Shown: positions 10,911 through 16,234 of the stretch, in pieces
Layout: each line of letters begins with the position of its first letter
Position numbering within the stretch: the stretch's first letter is position 1
The notes under the pieces: model-generated
Databases searched by the model: none
The model's input: only the letters and a program-made list of their open reading frames with translations
What the model was told of the DNA's origin: nothing
Made by a program: the position numbers and the translations under genes
IMG/VR virus record: IMGVR_UViG_2778261570_000004
Location: 1 to 28,792 of that record
Strand: one strand, 5' to 3'
DNA: 28,792 nt
Source: a virus
Taxonomy: Duplodnaviria; Heunggongvirae; Uroviricota; Caudoviricetes

Positions 10911-10942
10911 TAACTTTAGATAATTGGCATTATTTAAAGTTA
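10911..10942. other. rox-like recombination site (TAACTTTAGATAAT-TGGC-ATTATTTAAAGTTA)
   Basis: 14-4-14 palindrome with one arm mismatch; matches the rox target of Dre as recalled at 31 of 32 positions; about 150 bp upstream of the recombinase gene. Confidence 0.8.
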
Positions 10943-11094
10943 GGCTATAATTATGGGTAGATGATCAGTATTGACATCACTGAAAATACGTGCCTCGAAT
11001 CAAAGGCTTGAATCTTGAAAATTAACTTATAGCTACCCTGTCATTTTTATATTTTTCGCGTAGCGTCATCTGTATATAGAGGTTAAATAGTTTC

Positions 11095-12123
11095 ATGAGT
11101 GAATTAATTATCTCTGGCAGCTCCGGTGGTTTTCTGCGCAACATTGGCAAAGAGTACCAGGAGGCCGCAGAAAACTTTATGCGGTTCATGAATGACCAGG
11201 GGGCTTACGCGCCGAATACTTTGCGCGATCTCCGGTTAGTGTTTCACTCCTGGGCGAGATGGTGTCACGCTCGCCAGCTCGCCTGGTTCCCGATCTCACC
11301 AGAGATGGCCCGCGAGTATTTTCTTCAGCTGCATGATGCTGATCTGGCTTCGACCACCATTGATAAGCACTACGCCATGCTTAACATGCTGCTTTCGCAT
11401 TGTGGCCTTCCGCCACTTTCGGATGATAAAAGTGTTTCTCTGGCTATGCGGCGCATCCGGCGTGAAGCGGCAACTGAAAAAGGCGAACGAACAGGCCAGG
11501 CTATACCGCTGCGGTGGGACGATCTGAAACTGCTCGACGTCCTGTTGTCCAGGTCAGAACGGCTGGTGGACCTGCGCAACCGGGCTTTTCTCTTTGTTGC
11601 ATACAATACGCTGATGCGTATGTCGGAAATCTCGCGTATTCGTGTAGGAGATCTGGATCAAACAGGTGACACTGTCACGCTACATATTTCACACACGAAG
11701 ACAATAACGACCGCCGCCGGGATTGATAAGGTGCTTTCCCGTCGCACTACCGCTGTGCTGAATGACTGGCTGGATGTTTCCGGGCTTCGCGAACATCCTG
11801 ACGCAGTGTTGTTCCCGCCGATACACCGTAGCAATAAGGCCAGGATCACGACAACGCCCCTTACTGCACCTGCAATGGAGAAAATATTCAGCGACGCCTG
11901 GGTGTTGCTGAATAAAAGAGATGCTACGCCAAACAAAGGAAGATACCGGACGTGGACCGGGCATAGTGCACGCGTCGGGGCCGCTATTGATATGGCTGAA
12001 AAGCAGGTGTCTATGGTGGAGATCATGCAGGAAGGAACCTGGAAGAAACCGGAAACACTTATGCGGTATCTTCGCCGTGGCGGCGTGTCTGTGGGGGCTA
12101 ATAGCCGCCTGATGGATTCGTAA
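11095..12123 (+). CDS. dre: Cre-family tyrosine recombinase, Dre-like
   Basis: Alignable by eye to P1 Cre (HSWARWC, SVSLAMRRIRRE, RNRAFLFVAYNTLMRMSEISRIRVGDL, WTGHSARVGAAIDMA, LMRYL catalytic Tyr); adjacent rox-like site. Confidence 0.85.
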   Translation: MSELIISGSSGGFLRNIGKEYQEAAENFMRFMNDQGAYAPNTLRDLRLVFHSWARWCHARQLAWFPISPEMAREYFLQLHDADLASTTIDKHYAMLNMLLSHCGLPPLSDDKSVSLAMRRIRREAATEKGERTGQAIPLRWDDLKLLDVLLSRSERLVDLRNRAFLFVAYNTLMRMSEISRIRVGDLDQTGDTVTLHISHTKTITTAAGIDKVLSRRTTAVLNDWLDVSGLREHPDAVLFPPIHRSNKARITTTPLTAPAMEKIFSDAWVLLNKRDATPNKGRYRTWTGHSARVGAAIDMAEKQVSMVEIMQEGTWKKPETLMRYLRRGGVSVGANSRLMDS

Positions 12124-12143
12124 ATTAAAATTCTAACACATCT
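12123..12143. promoter_or_regulatory. operator-like motif copy 5 (reverse orientation)
   Basis: AAATTAAAATTCTAACACATC just after recombinase stop and about 55 bp before the next operon. Confidence 0.4.
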
Positions 12144-12196
12144 TTTTAGATTAACGCCTTTGCTGTAAAGTACCCTCGCCTATTTAGGAGGGTGCT

Positions 12197-12541
12197 TTGC
12201 AGAGTCAAATCACGGAATCAAGACGCTTCAAGGTGGATGGTTACACCGTAACCTTCGCCGCTGGTGTTAAGAACAGTCATGCTGTCGTTGTGTTCGGCAT
12301 CATGACCGGGCTTGAGGCCGTCCCTGTGTTTACCCTCGAAAAAAACTGGCGAAATCTGGAGGAAGCAGAAAGCTACGTCCGGAAAGTAACCATCATTGCC
12401 GCCGAAAAACTCCTGGCCCACTATCAGGAAAATTATCGCACTATGGTCGAGAAGATTAATCTCGCTTTCACTCGCCCCACTACCGGCTTTATTGCACCGG
12501 ATACTAATGCCGGTCGATATCCTGCAAGGGGGCGTCGGTGA
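12197..12541 (+). CDS. hypothetical protein (114 aa, TTG start)
   Basis: AGGAGG 5 nt upstream of TTG; first gene of a tightly coupled six-gene operon. Confidence 0.5.
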   Translation: MQSQITESRRFKVDGYTVTFAAGVKNSHAVVVFGIMTGLEAVPVFTLEKNWRNLEEAESYVRKVTIIAAEKLLAHYQENYRTMVEKINLAFTRPTTGFIAPDTNAGRYPARGRR

Positions 12542-13014
12542 AAACTTATTACCCATCTCTGAATTGTTACCCGTCTTCCTATCCAGAATTATCCGGGAAG
12601 CTGTTAGCTCTATTAGCTAAAGCACCTACGGAATGGTTTAAGCCAGTCGTTATCAATCCACACTTCCTGGGTTACGGATCTGTTCGCACTCGTAACGAAC
12701 TCAAAAACCTACTGGCGCATGGATTCATTCGACACCGTGCCGGGAAAGGCTATCAGTTAGCGATTGCGCCAGAAGAGGCCGTGCGGCTATTCGCATATCG
12801 TGACAGCCAGACAAAAGCTCGGGTAATAGCTCAAATACTTCATAACGGCAGCACCTATGCCCGCCAGTTTGGCGGCGACACGTCGCAGTTCTTGCGGGCG
12901 GTGCGATCGCTGGAGGAGCAAGGAGTTATTGAAAGTTCCTGTCTTCCTGTTCCTACCGTTCCACATATCAAACGTCGGGTTTACACCTTCACGCAGAGAG
13001 CTAAAAAACAATGA
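12538..13014 (+). CDS. hypothetical protein, possible winged-helix DNA-binding (158 aa, GTG start)
   Basis: GTGA overlap with upstream gene, ATGA overlap with downstream gene; basic helix-rich segments. Confidence 0.5.
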   Translation: MKTYYPSLNCYPSSYPELSGKLLALLAKAPTEWFKPVVINPHFLGYGSVRTRNELKNLLAHGFIRHRAGKGYQLAIAPEEAVRLFAYRDSQTKARVIAQILHNGSTYARQFGGDTSQFLRAVRSLEEQGVIESSCLPVPTVPHIKRRVYTFTQRAKKQ

Positions 13015-13505
13015 TTTACGTAAAAGTGAAACGCCTACATCCGGCAGCAAAACTTCCAGCTTATGCCACCTCCGGATCGGCGGCGATGGATTTTGAGGCT
13101 GTTGAAATAAAACCATGCGTCGATAGCAATGGTGCAATTTCCTCAAGCTGGTGGGTGTATACCGGACTGGCTATGGAGATCCCGCCCGGCTGGTGTCTGA
13201 AACTCTATCCGCGATCAGGATTGGGCTGCAAAAAACATACTCGCCTGGCTAACTGCGTAGGAATTATCGACTCCGATTATCGCGGCGAAATCATGGCAAA
13301 ACTGATTACTGATCCAGGCGGGGAAGGCGTTTGTCTCAAGCCTGGAATGGCTGTCATGCAAGGAATTTTTGAGCGTGTTGAACAAGTCTCACTAGTCGAG
13401 GTTGAGGAACTCAACGAAACGGAGCGTGGTGCTGGTGGCTTTGGTAGCACATCGGAAGGCCACTTTGAAATTAAGCGTTCACCGCTTCAGTACGAAAAGT
13501 TATAA
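13011..13505 (+). CDS. dut: dUTPase homolog (trimeric Dut family) with divergent motif IV
   Basis: Motifs SGSAAMDF, YPRSGLG, GIIDSDYRGE, RGAGGFGSTSEG present; motif IV reads GMAVMQ where E. coli Dut has GERIAQ. Confidence 0.7.
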   Translation: MIYVKVKRLHPAAKLPAYATSGSAAMDFEAVEIKPCVDSNGAISSSWWVYTGLAMEIPPGWCLKLYPRSGLGCKKHTRLANCVGIIDSDYRGEIMAKLITDPGGEGVCLKPGMAVMQGIFERVEQVSLVEVEELNETERGAGGFGSTSEGHFEIKRSPLQYEKL

Positions 13506-13519
13506 GCAGAGAAAAGACT

Positions 13520-13960
13520 ATGAATAACATGGCAACGAAAGAGCTTTTTAAGTTCCGTCCCAAATACAAAGCTCACAAAAAAAATGGAACCACGGTCATC
13601 ATTACGGATGACAACGGCGTGATGATTAATCTTACCGGGAGCGTAACTATTTCTGCTGGTGGCATCACCACCCAGCAAGAAGAAATCGACCTTGAAGCAG
13701 CCGACTTTTCAGACGCGCTGATGTGGCTGAAGGAAGGCAAGAAAGTTGCTCGACGCGGGTGGAACGGCGAAAACCAATTCTGCTGGCTGGTTCCTGAAGG
13801 ACAGTACCCGGCACGAATGGAAGCCATTAAGGGATATTTCCCCGGCGACCTCGTTCCGTATGGTGCTTATTTCGCCTTAAAAAATGCACAAGGTGTAGTT
13901 GTTCCGTGGGTGCCTTCAGTTGGCGACCTGCTGGCCTGTGACTGGTTTGTTGTGGAGTGA
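13520..13960 (+). CDS. DUF2829-like protein (146 aa)
   Basis: C-terminal ALMWLKEGKKVARRGWNG...PWVPSVGDLLACDWFVVE matches the DUF2829 pattern as recalled. Confidence 0.6.
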   Translation: MNNMATKELFKFRPKYKAHKKNGTTVIITDDNGVMINLTGSVTISAGGITTQQEEIDLEAADFSDALMWLKEGKKVARRGWNGENQFCWLVPEGQYPARMEAIKGYFPGDLVPYGAYFALKNAQGVVVPWVPSVGDLLACDWFVVE

Positions 13961-13966
13961 TTTGAC

Positions 13967-14734
13967 ATGGAAAGCACTAAAACAATTCAATACCGCTTGC
14001 GTAATGGCCTGCTGGTGGCTGTTAACGCCGACATGTCACTGCCGTTTGACACGATTGAACGCACTATCATGACGTATCTCGGCTTTAATGAAGAGCTGAA
14101 TGAAGAGCATGGCGTAGCTATATGGAGTGATGCAGACAGCGGCGTTCGTCGTTACATCACCGCCAGGGGCAAAGACTACTCTCTGGAAGAACTGTTTGCC
14201 CTTGCGCAGTCTTTCGAATGTGTAGCATTAGACCTGTTTAATGATCCTGCTATAGCGCAACGACTTATACGCGAGCTTGGGCTATCCGTTACACCAATTA
14301 TATTTAAAAATGGCAGCCTGACTGGCACATGGCGCGTAGAACGCATCTCAAACTACCTTCCATATAACCGACAGTTAAATGGAGTAATCTCCGGCGTTAA
14401 CCAGCCCGTAGCGTGTGAAAATGTAAACCTGGTTGTCGCTGTTTTGGCAACCGCATGTCGTGTTATCGGTTTGGCTAAACAGGCATTTATTCATTTCCCA
14501 AATGGTGCAGAAGGTAGCGCAGAGATTATCGCGTGTGATTTCGAATTTACCTGGATGCTACGCGAATATCTGGACCAAACAGTATTCCGTGCCGAAGAAC
14601 TGGATATGTATATCACGTCAACGATTCCAGACGATGTGCGAGCTGAAGCAATCGCTACAGCCAGGGCGAAATGCCGTGCGGCGATTGCAGAACAGGCCAA
14701 AGAAGAAGTTAAGGAAGTGGCAGATGGCGACTAA
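13967..14734 (+). CDS. hypothetical protein (255 aa)
   Basis: ORF; SD-like AAGGAAG for the next gene lies in its 3' end. Confidence 0.55.
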   Translation: MESTKTIQYRLRNGLLVAVNADMSLPFDTIERTIMTYLGFNEELNEEHGVAIWSDADSGVRRYITARGKDYSLEELFALAQSFECVALDLFNDPAIAQRLIRELGLSVTPIIFKNGSLTGTWRVERISNYLPYNRQLNGVISGVNQPVACENVNLVVAVLATACRVIGLAKQAFIHFPNGAEGSAEIIACDFEFTWMLREYLDQTVFRAEELDMYITSTIPDDVRAEAIATARAKCRAAIAEQAKEEVKEVADGD

Positions 14735-15818
14735 GAGCAATATTTATAAAGATCCGCGCTGGCTGTCGCTGGTGGAGAAATATAAAGACAATTGGGTACT
14801 GGCAGCAAAAGAATTGTTTGATATTGATTTAAGCCACCAGCAACAACAAATTGTTGAAGCTATACAGCCCAATAATGCAAAAGCTACTGTCACCACTCCG
14901 TATGGGATCGGACGACCGCAAGTGCTTGCTGTTATTAGTACCCTTTATACGATTATGTATCCTGATTCCCGGACAGTAATTGTTTATCCAAAATCAAATG
15001 TTTGCAAAAGAGGAATTGTTGCATATGTGTGGCAATGTTGGGAGGCATTGCTGAAAAAACAACCTTTTATCATTGAGTATTTTAAGGTCGGTGATAGCGG
15101 TCTGATGTTCAATGAATTTTGGGGAATGTGCTTTTGTAACTTCCGCCTTAACTATGAAGATAGCATTGCAGGTCACTACGCCGACCATCTTTTATTCATT
15201 ATTGTGGATTCCGCACATATCAGCGATCGGGCATACAGCATTGTGTGGGCAAGCATGACTAGTGGTGATTCACGCATATTGCTCACTTCAATTCCGTCAC
15301 CAGAGGAAATAGGCTTTTTTTATGATTCACATCATGGACGTGCTTTAGCTGAAGATAATCCGAGTGGTGTATATAAAGCCATTAAGCTGAGTGCGGAGGA
15401 TTCACCATTTATTACCCAAGAATATCTTGATCATTTTGCCGAAAGGTATGGCGGGCGAAATAGTGATGACTATCGTCGTATGATTCTTGGTGAGTTCCCT
15501 GGTATTAGGGAGGCTGTTCTTGAATCAGATATGCCGAAGACAATGCGCTTTTCGATGCCTGATGGTAGTGAATGGACAATACCATTACGAGTGATAGCCC
15601 GGCATCATGCGCAGCACCACGCCAAAAAACATGGCGTCACGACATTAGAATGGTTGAAATCGCACACCATTCCACTCTTCACTGCAGATCACAATGCTAT
15701 CGTTGAGTGGGCAAAAACAATTCCGTGGGAGAATGTCGCTGAATACGCCCACATGCTAAAACCGCCGAAAGACAGGCAAGAAATTAGCTGGCTGACAGCA
15801 GAAAAAATCATTGAGTGA
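14724..15818 (+). CDS. terminase large subunit paralog with degenerate Walker A/B and no nuclease domain (364 aa; track ORF 14433 is an upstream frame extension)
   Basis: By-eye alignment to the 8092 protein: DPRW, SHQQQ, FFYDSHH, YGGR conserved; GHGTGKS becomes PYGIGRP, ILDEAS becomes IVDSAH; unrelated C-terminus. Confidence 0.65.
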   Translation: MATKSNIYKDPRWLSLVEKYKDNWVLAAKELFDIDLSHQQQQIVEAIQPNNAKATVTTPYGIGRPQVLAVISTLYTIMYPDSRTVIVYPKSNVCKRGIVAYVWQCWEALLKKQPFIIEYFKVGDSGLMFNEFWGMCFCNFRLNYEDSIAGHYADHLLFIIVDSAHISDRAYSIVWASMTSGDSRILLTSIPSPEEIGFFYDSHHGRALAEDNPSGVYKAIKLSAEDSPFITQEYLDHFAERYGGRNSDDYRRMILGEFPGIREAVLESDMPKTMRFSMPDGSEWTIPLRVIARHHAQHHAKKHGVTTLEWLKSHTIPLFTADHNAIVEWAKTIPWENVAEYAHMLKPPKDRQEISWLTAEKIIE

Positions 15819-15853
15819 TAGTAAGAAGCCCGCCTGGTTGAGCGGGCTTCTTT

Positions 15854-16234
15854 TCAAATATTGGAACCATATAGTTCACGTAGTTTTTTCGCTACTGAAG
15901 ATACGGGGATTTCACCAGTTGCAGCCCCCACTGCAAGCTCCACCAGCACGGGATCATCATATACCTGTATACCGTTACGGCGTAGAAATAGCAGCGCACT
16001 GTTTAGCGCGGTACGCTTATTGGCATCATTGAATATATGCCCTCTCGCCGTAGCCACCAGGTAGGTGGCGGAGACTTCGAAAAGGTCGGTGATCTCTTCG
16101 TAGGCAACTCTGGCCTGAACTCTCCCGATAATGGCCTCTGCCCTACCCGGATCTGACATTCCCGGCAGGCCGCCGTAGCGGCTTATATTCGCATCATGAA
16201 GCGCAATAAGTTCTTCCGGTGATATATGCCTCAT
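15854..16234 (-). CDS. doc: Doc toxin (Fic/Doc family)
   Basis: Near-identical over most of its length to P1 Doc as recalled ([39 protein letters not shown]...). Confidence 0.9.

What the first reader, a model, noticed from the sequence alone, without database searches (positions are those of the whole stretch)
13520..13960. DUF2829-like protein, possible nucleotide-signal sponge
The C-terminal half (ALMWLKEGKKVARRGWNG...DLLACDWFVVE) fits the DUF2829 pattern as I recall it. That family includes the Thoeris anti-defense protein Tad2, which sequesters immune signalling nucleotides. The gene sits in the accessory operon next to the dUTPase.
Basis: partly seen in the sequence, partly recalled or inferred. 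Interest (0 to 1): 0.6.

Follow-up and report, generated by a model that had tools for sequence, protein, structure and literature searches.

The report
Phage sponge against bacterial immune signals
This gene of a D6-like phage-plasmid of E. coli encodes a member of the known Tad2 family, small viral proteins that mop up the alarm molecules of the bacterial Thoeris defence.

Summary
The ORF at 13520-13960 (+, 146 aa) is real. Its C-terminal 89 residues are a clear Tad2/DUF2829 domain: Pfam PF11195 at 81.6 bits (cut-off 25), and the best sequence and fold matches are all solved Tad2 sponges, led by ModTad2 bound to His-ADPR. The five core ligand-pocket residues are conserved. [quoted passage not shown] The gene lies in a same-strand block running dre, two unknown ORFs, dUTPase, tad2, isaA-like. 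RefSeq already names it "DUF2829 domain-containing protein", and a 2025 preprint reports Tad2 in 93% of D6-group phage-plasmids, so the finding is correct but not new. Two further points came out. First, this allele is an in-frame 237-bp deletion of the commoner 225-aa form. Second, the lost ~85-aa domain is related to the phage L Dec OB-fold. Its only recurrent fusion partners are the sponge families Tad2, Acb4 and Sequestin, which makes it a candidate for a further sponge or accessory module. That domain is not in this window. No function was tested here.

The parts
13520..13960 (+). tad2-like gene (146 codons + TGA), short allele; RefSeq WP_001061875.1 'DUF2829 domain-containing protein'
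   Evidence: ORF list; Pfam PF11195 81.6 bits; annotation of the 100%-identical plasmid NZ_AP027688.1; exact sequence on 527 contigs
13691..13957 (+). Tad2 sponge domain, aa 58-146. Predicted pocket residues W81, N82, W130, S133, D136 (core) and L120, N122, Q124, V128, G135.
   Evidence: phmmer to 9EIB/8V3E over aa 58-146; AF2 pLDDT 85-96 over aa 61-146; Foldseek gives 24 significant hits, all Tad2 structures; residue mapping; invariant columns in 53 homologues
13520..13579 (+). aa 1-20 (MNNMATKELFKFRPKYKAHK): remaining start of the deleted Dec-like OB domain
   Evidence: Alignment with the 225-aa allele and with D6; the P.YK.HK motif opens the OB domain in distant homologues; pLDDT about 47
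13577..13585 (+). Junction of the in-frame 237-bp (79-codon) deletion (AHK|KNGTT), at a CAAAAA microhomology
   Evidence: DNA alignment of window, D6 and pTB423 long allele; translation of the long allele
13580..13690 (+). aa 21-57: retained inter-domain linker (KNGTTVIITDDNGVMINLTGSVTISAGGITTQQEEIDLEAA), short beta strands modelled with low confidence
   Evidence: AF2 strands 25-29, 35-39, 42-45, 48-51 at pLDDT 55-67; the same segment lies between OB and Tad2 domains in long alleles
13011..13505 (+). dUTPase gene directly upstream (14-bp gap)
   Evidence: PF00692 E=1.7e-14, PHROG 135 E=5.4e-62
11095..15818 (+). Same-strand gene block: dre recombinase, orf117-like, orf116-like, dut, tad2, isaA-like, and a 364-aa ORF. 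Junctions are overlapping start/stop codons or gaps of 6, 14 and 73 bp. Read as an operon by inference.
   Evidence: ORF coordinates; annotations of D6 and NZ_AP027688.1
10924..10951 (+). Promoter-like site TTGGCA-16-TATAAT (11 of 12) upstream of dre, overlapping the rox site (10911-10942)
   Evidence: Consensus scan; sequence; D6 rox annotation. A consensus match only.
15832..15857 (+). Terminator-like hairpin plus T-rich tail just after the last gene of the block
   Evidence: Consensus scan. A consensus match only.

Best explanation
The gene encodes a Tad2-family immune-signal sponge carried by a D6-like (P1-family) phage-plasmid. Shown here: the ORF, the domain hit, the predicted fold, the conserved pocket residues and the gene context. 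Inferred from solved homologues: aa 58-146 fold as helix alpha1 plus an antiparallel sheet and assemble into a homotetramer (two V-shaped dimers). Pockets between protomers of different dimers are lined by W81/N82 (the GWNG motif), W130, S133 and D136, and they enclose an ADP-ribose-derived signal made by Thoeris TIR proteins. Inferred from the closest tested relative (Tad2_68): the likely ligands are His-ADPR (type II Thoeris) and 3'cADPR (1''-3' gcADPR, type I Thoeris). Sequestering them would keep the ThsA effector off, so the phage-plasmid could replicate in Thoeris-carrying Enterobacteria. The first 57 residues are a leftover: 20 aa of a deleted OB-fold domain plus the inter-domain linker. 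They probably form a flexible tail that is not needed for sponge activity.
For: Domain and fold:
- Pfam PF11195 over the full profile, 81.6 bits against a cut-off of 25.
- PDB sequence hits are only Tad2 proteins.
- The AF2 model has pLDDT 85-96 for aa 61-146.
- Foldseek against PDB gives 24 significant hits, all Tad2, the best being 9EIB ModTad2 with His-ADPR (E=1e-9, 47% identity).

Pocket residues:
- SPO1 Tad2 contacts W25, N26, W73, S76 and D79, equivalent to HgmTad2 W21/N22 and S90/D93, align to W81, N82, W130, S133 and D136.
- W81, W130, S133 and D136 are invariant, and N82 at least 90% conserved, in 53 homologues down to 40% identity.

Likely ligands:
- Tad2_68 is 68% identical and has the same residue at all 10 mapped pocket positions.
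- Table S2 of Hadary et al. (10.1101/2025.08.24.671296) lists Tad2_68 as inhibiting type II Thoeris (liquid and plaque assays) and type I Thoeris (plaque assay). It lists it as not inhibiting type IV Thoeris, two CBASS systems or two Pycsar systems.

Tolerance of the N-terminal tail:
- HgmTad2 (151 aa), which also has an N-terminal extension, is active.

Maintenance and prior reports:
- The exact sequence is on 527 contigs and the same short allele is in phage D6.
- DefenseFinder calls Tad2 in 93% of D6-group phage-plasmids (10.1101/2025.09.12.675607).
Against: - No binding or infection experiment exists for this protein or for any P1/D6-group allele that I could find.
- Tetramer formation could not be modelled with the tools available.
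- About 88% of PLSDB plasmids with this Tad2 domain also carry the OB domain (236 against 208 records), so the full form may be the selected one.
- The locus shows several other in-frame deletions: P0136 lacks the Tad2 domain, P0078 lacks half of each domain, and P0028 is fused to dUTPase. This could mean relaxed constraint.
- Secondary pocket positions differ from SPO1 Tad2 (T65N, D67Q, H71V, T78G).
- The published His-ADPR contact residues of ModTad2 could not be retrieved, so specificity rests on similarity to Tad2_68 alone.
- When the operon is expressed is unknown.
Confidence: 0.72

Rival explanations
1. Decaying remnant: the 237-bp deletion, or the 57-aa stump it leaves, inactivates the protein. 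The short allele would then be a neutral passenger that spread clonally with D6-like plasmids.
For: - The long two-domain form is the majority in complete plasmids.
- The locus carries several different in-frame deletions and fusions.
- The stump is modelled with low confidence (pLDDT 47-67).
Against: - The reading frame is kept and the whole Tad2 domain is intact, with all conserved pocket residues.
- Stand-alone Tad2 proteins of 85-90 aa are the normal active form.
- The identical sequence is on 527 contigs and the same allele is in the D6 reference phage.
Confidence: 0.13
2. It is a sponge, but its main target is a different signal: Pycsar cUMP/cCMP (as in MoTad2's second pocket), CBASS cyclic dinucleotides (as in HgmTad2) or N7-cADPR (type IV Thoeris, as in Tad2_71).
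For: - Tad2 proteins as a family cover all these signals, and specificity shifts between close relatives.
- MoTad2, 46% identical with an insertion of the same length, blocks Pycsar through the pocket inside the dimer.
- Alleles of this locus vary most in exactly that insertion (P0010, P0063).
Against: - Tad2_68, the nearest tested relative, did not inhibit either CBASS system, either Pycsar system or type IV Thoeris.
- The HgmTad2 dinucleotide site needs a 35-41-residue insertion and R31/S47/N85. This protein has 25 residues, with V91, a gap and V128 at those positions.
Confidence: 0.1
3. It is an AcrIIA7-like anti-CRISPR that inhibits Cas9.
For: AcrIIA7 carries the same domain, and DefenseFinder labels the hit 'Tad2 AcrIIA7'.
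Against: - Yirmiya et al. note that Cas9 binding by AcrIIA7 was never shown, and argue that the family acts against Thoeris.
- AcrIIA7/HgmTad2 itself binds gcADPR and cGG.
- Identity to it is only 36%.
- From general knowledge, E. coli and Salmonella lack type II CRISPR-Cas.
Confidence: 0.02

Closest known systems
Phage D6 orf114 (YP_009914791.1, 'DUF2829 domain-containing protein')
   Same: 98.6% identical over all 146 aa; the same short allele with the same deletion junction; the same position after dre, orf117, orf116 and dut and before the isaA-like gene.
   Different: Two amino-acid changes. The window element also carries a 364-aa ORF after isaA that D6 lacks.
Tad2_68 (IMG/VR metagenomic phage, 87 aa; Hadary et al. 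2025, Table S2)
   Same: 68% identity over aa 61-142; the same insertion length; identical residues at all 10 mapped pocket positions. [quoted passage not shown]
   Different: Tad2_68 is a stand-alone 87-aa protein. The window protein has a 57-aa N-terminal stump and has not been tested.
MoTad2/ModTad2 (Myroides odoratus prophage; PDB 9EIB with His-ADPR, 8V3E apo)
   Same: Best sequence and fold match among solved structures (46-47% identity). W/N, W, S and D of the canonical pocket are shared.
   Different: MoTad2 does not inhibit type I Thoeris and also blocks Pycsar through a second pocket. Pocket positions T64, D66, A70 and S77 are N122, Q124, V128 and G135 here.
SPO1 Tad2 (founding member; PDB 8SME/8SMF/8SMG)
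   Same: The same fold and the same core contacts W25, N26, W73, S76, D79.
   Different: 36% identity; it inhibits only type I Thoeris; T65, D67, H71 and T78 are replaced here.
HgmTad2 / AcrIIA7 (PDB 8KBI-8KBM)
   Same: Tad2 domain with a natural N-terminal extension; the gcADPR site W21/N22/S90/D93 is conserved here.
   Different: Its 41-residue insertion and its cyclic-dinucleotide site (R31, S47, N85) are absent here.
225-aa long allele of P1/D6-group phage-plasmids (e.g. WP_121841009.1 on pTB423)
   Same: The same locus, the same first 20 aa, the same linker and a nearly identical Tad2 domain.
   Different: It carries 79 extra residues forming a Dec-like OB-fold domain that the window allele has lost.

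Membership tests
Tad2 sponge family (Pfam PF11195, formerly DUF2829) | Sequence match to the family profile above its curated threshold | tested here: met
   81.6 bits against 25, E=5.9e-23, profile positions 2-73 of 73
Tad2 sponge family (Pfam PF11195, formerly DUF2829) | Tad2 fold: N-terminal helix, antiparallel sheet, short helices in the loops | tested here: met
   AF2 model pLDDT 85-96 for aa 61-146. All 24 significant Foldseek PDB hits are Tad2 structures, with TM-score on the target up to 0.89.
Tad2 sponge family (Pfam PF11195, formerly DUF2829) | Conserved canonical pocket residues (Trp-Asn of GWNG, second Trp, Ser, Asp) | tested here: met
   W81, N82, W130, S133 and D136 align to SPO1 W25, N26, W73, S76, D79 and to HgmTad2 W21, N22, W87, S90, D93. 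They are invariant or at least 90% conserved in 53 homologues.
Tad2 sponge family (Pfam PF11195, formerly DUF2829) | Homotetramer with ligand pockets at protomer interfaces | not testable with these tools
   Only monomer prediction was available. Tetramers are known for SPO1, Hgm and Mo Tad2.
Tad2 sponge family (Pfam PF11195, formerly DUF2829) | Sequesters a TIR-derived signal and relieves Thoeris defence | not testable with these tools
   Needs binding and infection assays. Known only for relatives.
Tad2 sponge family (Pfam PF11195, formerly DUF2829) | Small protein encoded by a phage or other mobile element | tested here: met
   D6-like phage-plasmid. The protein is 146 aa, of which 89 form the domain.
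Type II Thoeris-inhibiting Tad2 subgroup (MoTad2, Tad2_68) | Close sequence relation to verified type II inhibitors, with the same pocket residues | tested here: met
   68% identity to Tad2_68 with 10 of 10 pocket positions identical; 46% to MoTad2; best fold hit 9EIB
Type II Thoeris-inhibiting Tad2 subgroup (MoTad2, Tad2_68) | Binds His-ADPR | not testable with these tools
   The published contact residues were not retrievable, and no docking tool was available.
Cyclic-dinucleotide-binding Tad2 (HgmTad2, SptTad2) | Long insertion (35-41 residues) between beta2 and beta5, with R31, S47, F70 and N85 | tested here: not met
   The insertion is 25 residues (P92-A116). The equivalent positions are V91, a gap, Y114 and V128.
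AcrIIA7 anti-CRISPR | Inhibits type II-A Cas9 | not tested
   Only the domain is shared (36% identity). The anti-CRISPR role of the family is itself questioned.
Two-domain OB-Tad2 proteins of P1/D6-group phage-plasmids | N-terminal Dec-like OB-fold domain present | tested here: not met
   79 codons are deleted in frame and only the first 20 aa remain.

The most novel reading that the evidence does not exclude
The 146-aa protein is the stump of a two-module counter-defence protein. The module it lost is a ~85-aa OB-fold domain related to the phage L decoration protein Dec, with no Pfam or NCBIfam model, found in more than 2000 protein clusters. Its only recurrent fusion partners are the three sponge families Tad2, Acb4 and Sequestin. 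On this reading the OB domain is itself an unrecognised family of immune-signal sponges, or an obligatory partner of sponges. The P1/D6 locus would then be a site where sponge modules are gained, lost and shuffled by in-frame deletion.
Probability: 0.3. Interest if true: 0.6.

Novelty: already known. Interest (0 to 1): 0.25.

Why it matters
As it stands the finding confirms an existing annotation. D6- and P1-group phage-plasmids of E. coli, Shigella and Salmonella carry a Tad2-type anti-Thoeris sponge, and this has already been reported computationally. The added value is a more precise prediction. The allele sits next to Tad2_68, so it should block type II and type I Thoeris rather than CBASS or Pycsar. 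That is cheap to test, and D6 is a tractable model phage. The domain lost from this allele is the more interesting lead. Fusion to known sponges is the reasoning that uncovered Sequestin, and the same reasoning points to the Dec-like OB domain as a possible further player in viral evasion of nucleotide immune signalling.

Tried and rejected
- **Cyclic-dinucleotide (CBASS) sponge of the HgmTad2 type.** Rejected: the insertion is too short and the contact residues are not conserved, and Tad2_68 is negative on both CBASS systems.
- **Weak Pfam hit to the EF-P OB domain** (E=0.043, below threshold). Rejected as noise.
- **PADLOC defence models and NCBIfam.** No hit for this protein or its neighbours.
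- **P1 C1-operator consensus** (recalled from general knowledge). No match anywhere in the window with up to 3 mismatches, so nothing can be said about repressor control.
- **His-ADPR contact residues of ModTad2.** The journal paper is not held, and the preprint has only the apo structure.
- **Word-indexed search for the lost N-domain.** It found only close relatives. The exhaustive search was needed.
- **Is the lost domain Lockin or TadIV-1?** Rejected. The LockinA sequence shows none of the searched OB-domain motifs and looks unrelated by inspection. TadIV-1 is built around a two-helix structure.
- **Fold searches of the lost domain.** They returned only generic OB folds plus phage L Dec and uncharacterised viral proteins.

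Full report
**Observation.** The window has an ATG-started ORF at 13520-13960 on the + strand, 146 codons plus TGA. Pfam PF11195, now called 'Tad2-like' and formerly DUF2829, matches aa 62-145 across the whole 73-position profile, with E=5.9e-23 and 81.6 bits against a gathering score of 25. PHROGs places the protein in families 872 and 1048, both of unknown function. A sequence search of all PDB chains returns only Tad2 proteins:
- ModTad2 with His-ADPR (9EIB, 8e-21) and apo ModTad2 (8V3E)
- HgmTad2/AcrIIA7 (3.7e-11)
- SPO1 Tad2 (1.4e-9)
- SptTad2

The gene immediately upstream (13011-13505) is a dUTPase.

**Source and context.** The region is 97.9% identical to Escherichia phage D6. Over 13011-14734 it is 100% identical to E. 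coli plasmid NZ_AP027688.1, a 90.5-kb non-mobilizable D6-like phage-plasmid. The gene order is Dre recombinase (11095-12123), two unknown ORFs, dUTPase, the Tad2-like gene, an isaA-like gene and a 364-aa ORF. All are on one strand, joined by overlapping start/stop codons or gaps of 6, 14 and 73 bp. A promoter-like site lies upstream of dre inside the rox site, and a terminator-like hairpin follows the last gene. Both are consensus matches only. RefSeq already names the protein 'DUF2829 domain-containing protein' (WP_001061875.1; D6 orf114). The exact sequence occurs on 527 contigs. A 2025 preprint that screened 1,592 P1/D6-group sequences with DefenseFinder reports 'Tad2 AcrIIA7 (anti-Thoeris)' in 93% of D6-group and 56% of P1-group elements (10.1101/2025.09.12.675607).

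**Structure and pocket.** I predicted the structure with AlphaFold2 from a 53-sequence alignment. The model has pLDDT 85-96 for aa 61-146 (helix 63-71, then strands and short helices) and below 70 for aa 1-60. Foldseek against the PDB gives 24 hits at E<=0.001. All are Tad2 structures, and the best is 9EIB (E=1e-9, 47% identity). The next hit of any other kind has E=0.7.

The 1''-3' gcADPR contacts published for SPO1 Tad2 are W25, N26, W73 and D79, with S76, T78, I63, T65, D67 and H71 in secondary or water-mediated roles (10.1101/2023.05.01.538930). The gcADPR-site mutants published for HgmTad2 are W21/N22 and S90/T92/D93 (10.1101/2023.11.15.567273). In a MAFFT alignment these map to W81, N82, W130, S133 and D136, all conserved, and to L120, N122, Q124, V128 and G135. 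W81, W130, S133 and D136 are invariant, and N82 is at least 90% conserved, across 53 homologues down to 40% identity. The HgmTad2 cyclic-dinucleotide site is not present. The beta2-beta5 insertion is 25 residues rather than 41, and R31, S47 and N85 correspond to V91, a gap and V128.

**Nearest tested relatives.** Hadary et al. (10.1101/2025.08.24.671296) tested 18 Tad2 homologues against seven signalling defence systems. Their Table S2 gives sequences and outcomes. The window domain is 68% identical to Tad2_68, 46% to MoTad2 and at most 38% to all others. It has the same residue as Tad2_68 at all ten mapped pocket positions. Tad2_68 is listed as follows:
- Type II Thoeris (His-ADPR): inhibits, in liquid culture and plaque assay.
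- Type I Thoeris (3'cADPR): inhibits, in plaque assay.
- Type IV Thoeris, two CBASS systems, two Pycsar systems: does not inhibit.

I checked my reading of the table columns against the controls, which behave as the text describes: SPO1 Tad2 inhibits type I only, MoTad2 inhibits type II and both Pycsar systems, and T4 Acb2 inhibits CBASS. There is also a small-sample pattern in the Ser-x-x-Asp pocket motif. It reads SQTD or SQAD in five type-I-only Tad2 proteins. It reads SVSD, SIGD and SSSD in three of the four type II inhibitors. Here it reads SVGD.

**The N-terminal half.** Most relatives at this locus are 216-233 aa long. The 225-aa allele of plasmid pTB423 differs from the window protein by 79 extra residues between AHK and KNGTT. 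At the DNA level this is a clean 237-bp in-frame deletion at a CAAAAA microhomology, and phage D6 shares it. So aa 1-20 are the start of a lost domain and aa 21-57 are the retained linker. In PLSDB, 236 plasmids carry this Tad2 domain and 208 carry the lost domain. The short form is therefore a minority allele, though a widespread one. Other in-frame rearrangements occur at the same locus:
- P0136 keeps the N-domain and linker but lacks the Tad2 domain.
- P0078 joins half of each domain.
- P0028 fuses dUTPase to the Tad2 domain.
- Some alleles differ mainly in the Tad2 insertion loop, or carry a C-terminal PF21825 domain.

**Mechanism and confidence.**
- Shown: a real, conserved gene; a full Tad2 domain; a confident Tad2 fold; conserved pocket residues; phage-plasmid context.
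- Inferred from solved homologues: tetramer assembly and ligand capture between protomers.
- Inferred from Tad2_68: the ligands are His-ADPR and 3'cADPR.
- Not shown: any binding or anti-defence activity of this protein, the effect of the 57-aa stump, and the timing of expression.

I put 0.72 on 'functional Tad2-type sponge for TIR-derived ADPR signals'. The specific ligand pair is less certain than that. I put 0.13 on 'inactive remnant', 0.10 on 'sponge with another main ligand' and 0.02 on 'anti-CRISPR'.

**Verdict.** The finding is an already annotated and already reported member of a well-characterised family, so novelty is 'already known' and interest is low (0.25). What is new here is the deletion-allele structure, the assignment next to a tested type I/II Thoeris inhibitor, and the side lead on the Dec-like OB domain.

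Noticed in passing
Not in the window. Long alleles such as L002:3510-4187 (aa 14-99 of P0001). Only the first 20 codons survive, at window 13520-13579.: A ~85-aa OB-fold domain related to the phage L Dec decoration protein, with no Pfam or NCBIfam model, found in 2,129 representative clusters. Its only recurrent Pfam fusion partners are the sponge families Tad2, Acb4 (PF13876) and Sequestin (PF21825). It is a candidate new sponge or sponge-accessory module.
   Followed up: partly
Window 13577-13585, and homologues P0136, P0078, P0028: The locus is prone to in-frame deletions. The window allele lost the OB domain at a CAAAAA microhomology. P0136 lost the Tad2 domain instead. P0078 lost half of each. 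P0028 is a dUTPase-Tad2 fusion.
   Followed up: partly
Window 10911-10942 and 10924-10951: The rox recombination site (TAACTTTAGATAATTGGCATTATTTAAAGTTA) lies about 150 bp upstream of dre. It is overlapped by the best promoter-like match of the region, TTGGCA-16-TATAAT, 11 of 12.
   Followed up: no
Window 13011-13960; Bacillus phages JL and Shanette (hits H61-H64): A Tad2 homologue also lies next to a dUTPase gene in unrelated Bacillus phages. Whether this adjacency means anything is unknown.
   Followed up: no
Window 14724-15818 (+): A 364-aa ORF follows the isaA-like gene. It is present in this plasmid lineage but absent from phage D6 at this position. It has no significant Pfam, NCBIfam or PADLOC hit.
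   Followed up: partly
Window 12197-13014 and 13967-14734 (+): Three further genes of the same block (orf117-like, orf116-like, isaA-like) match only PHROGs of unknown function (1968, 6669, 2326). Because they sit beside a sponge gene, they are candidates for other counter-defence functions.
   Followed up: no
Homologues P0010, P0063, P0058 (same locus in other plasmids): Alleles differ most in the beta2-beta5 insertion of the Tad2 domain. In other Tad2 proteins this region forms the second ligand pocket, which suggests diversification of a second specificity.
   Followed up: no
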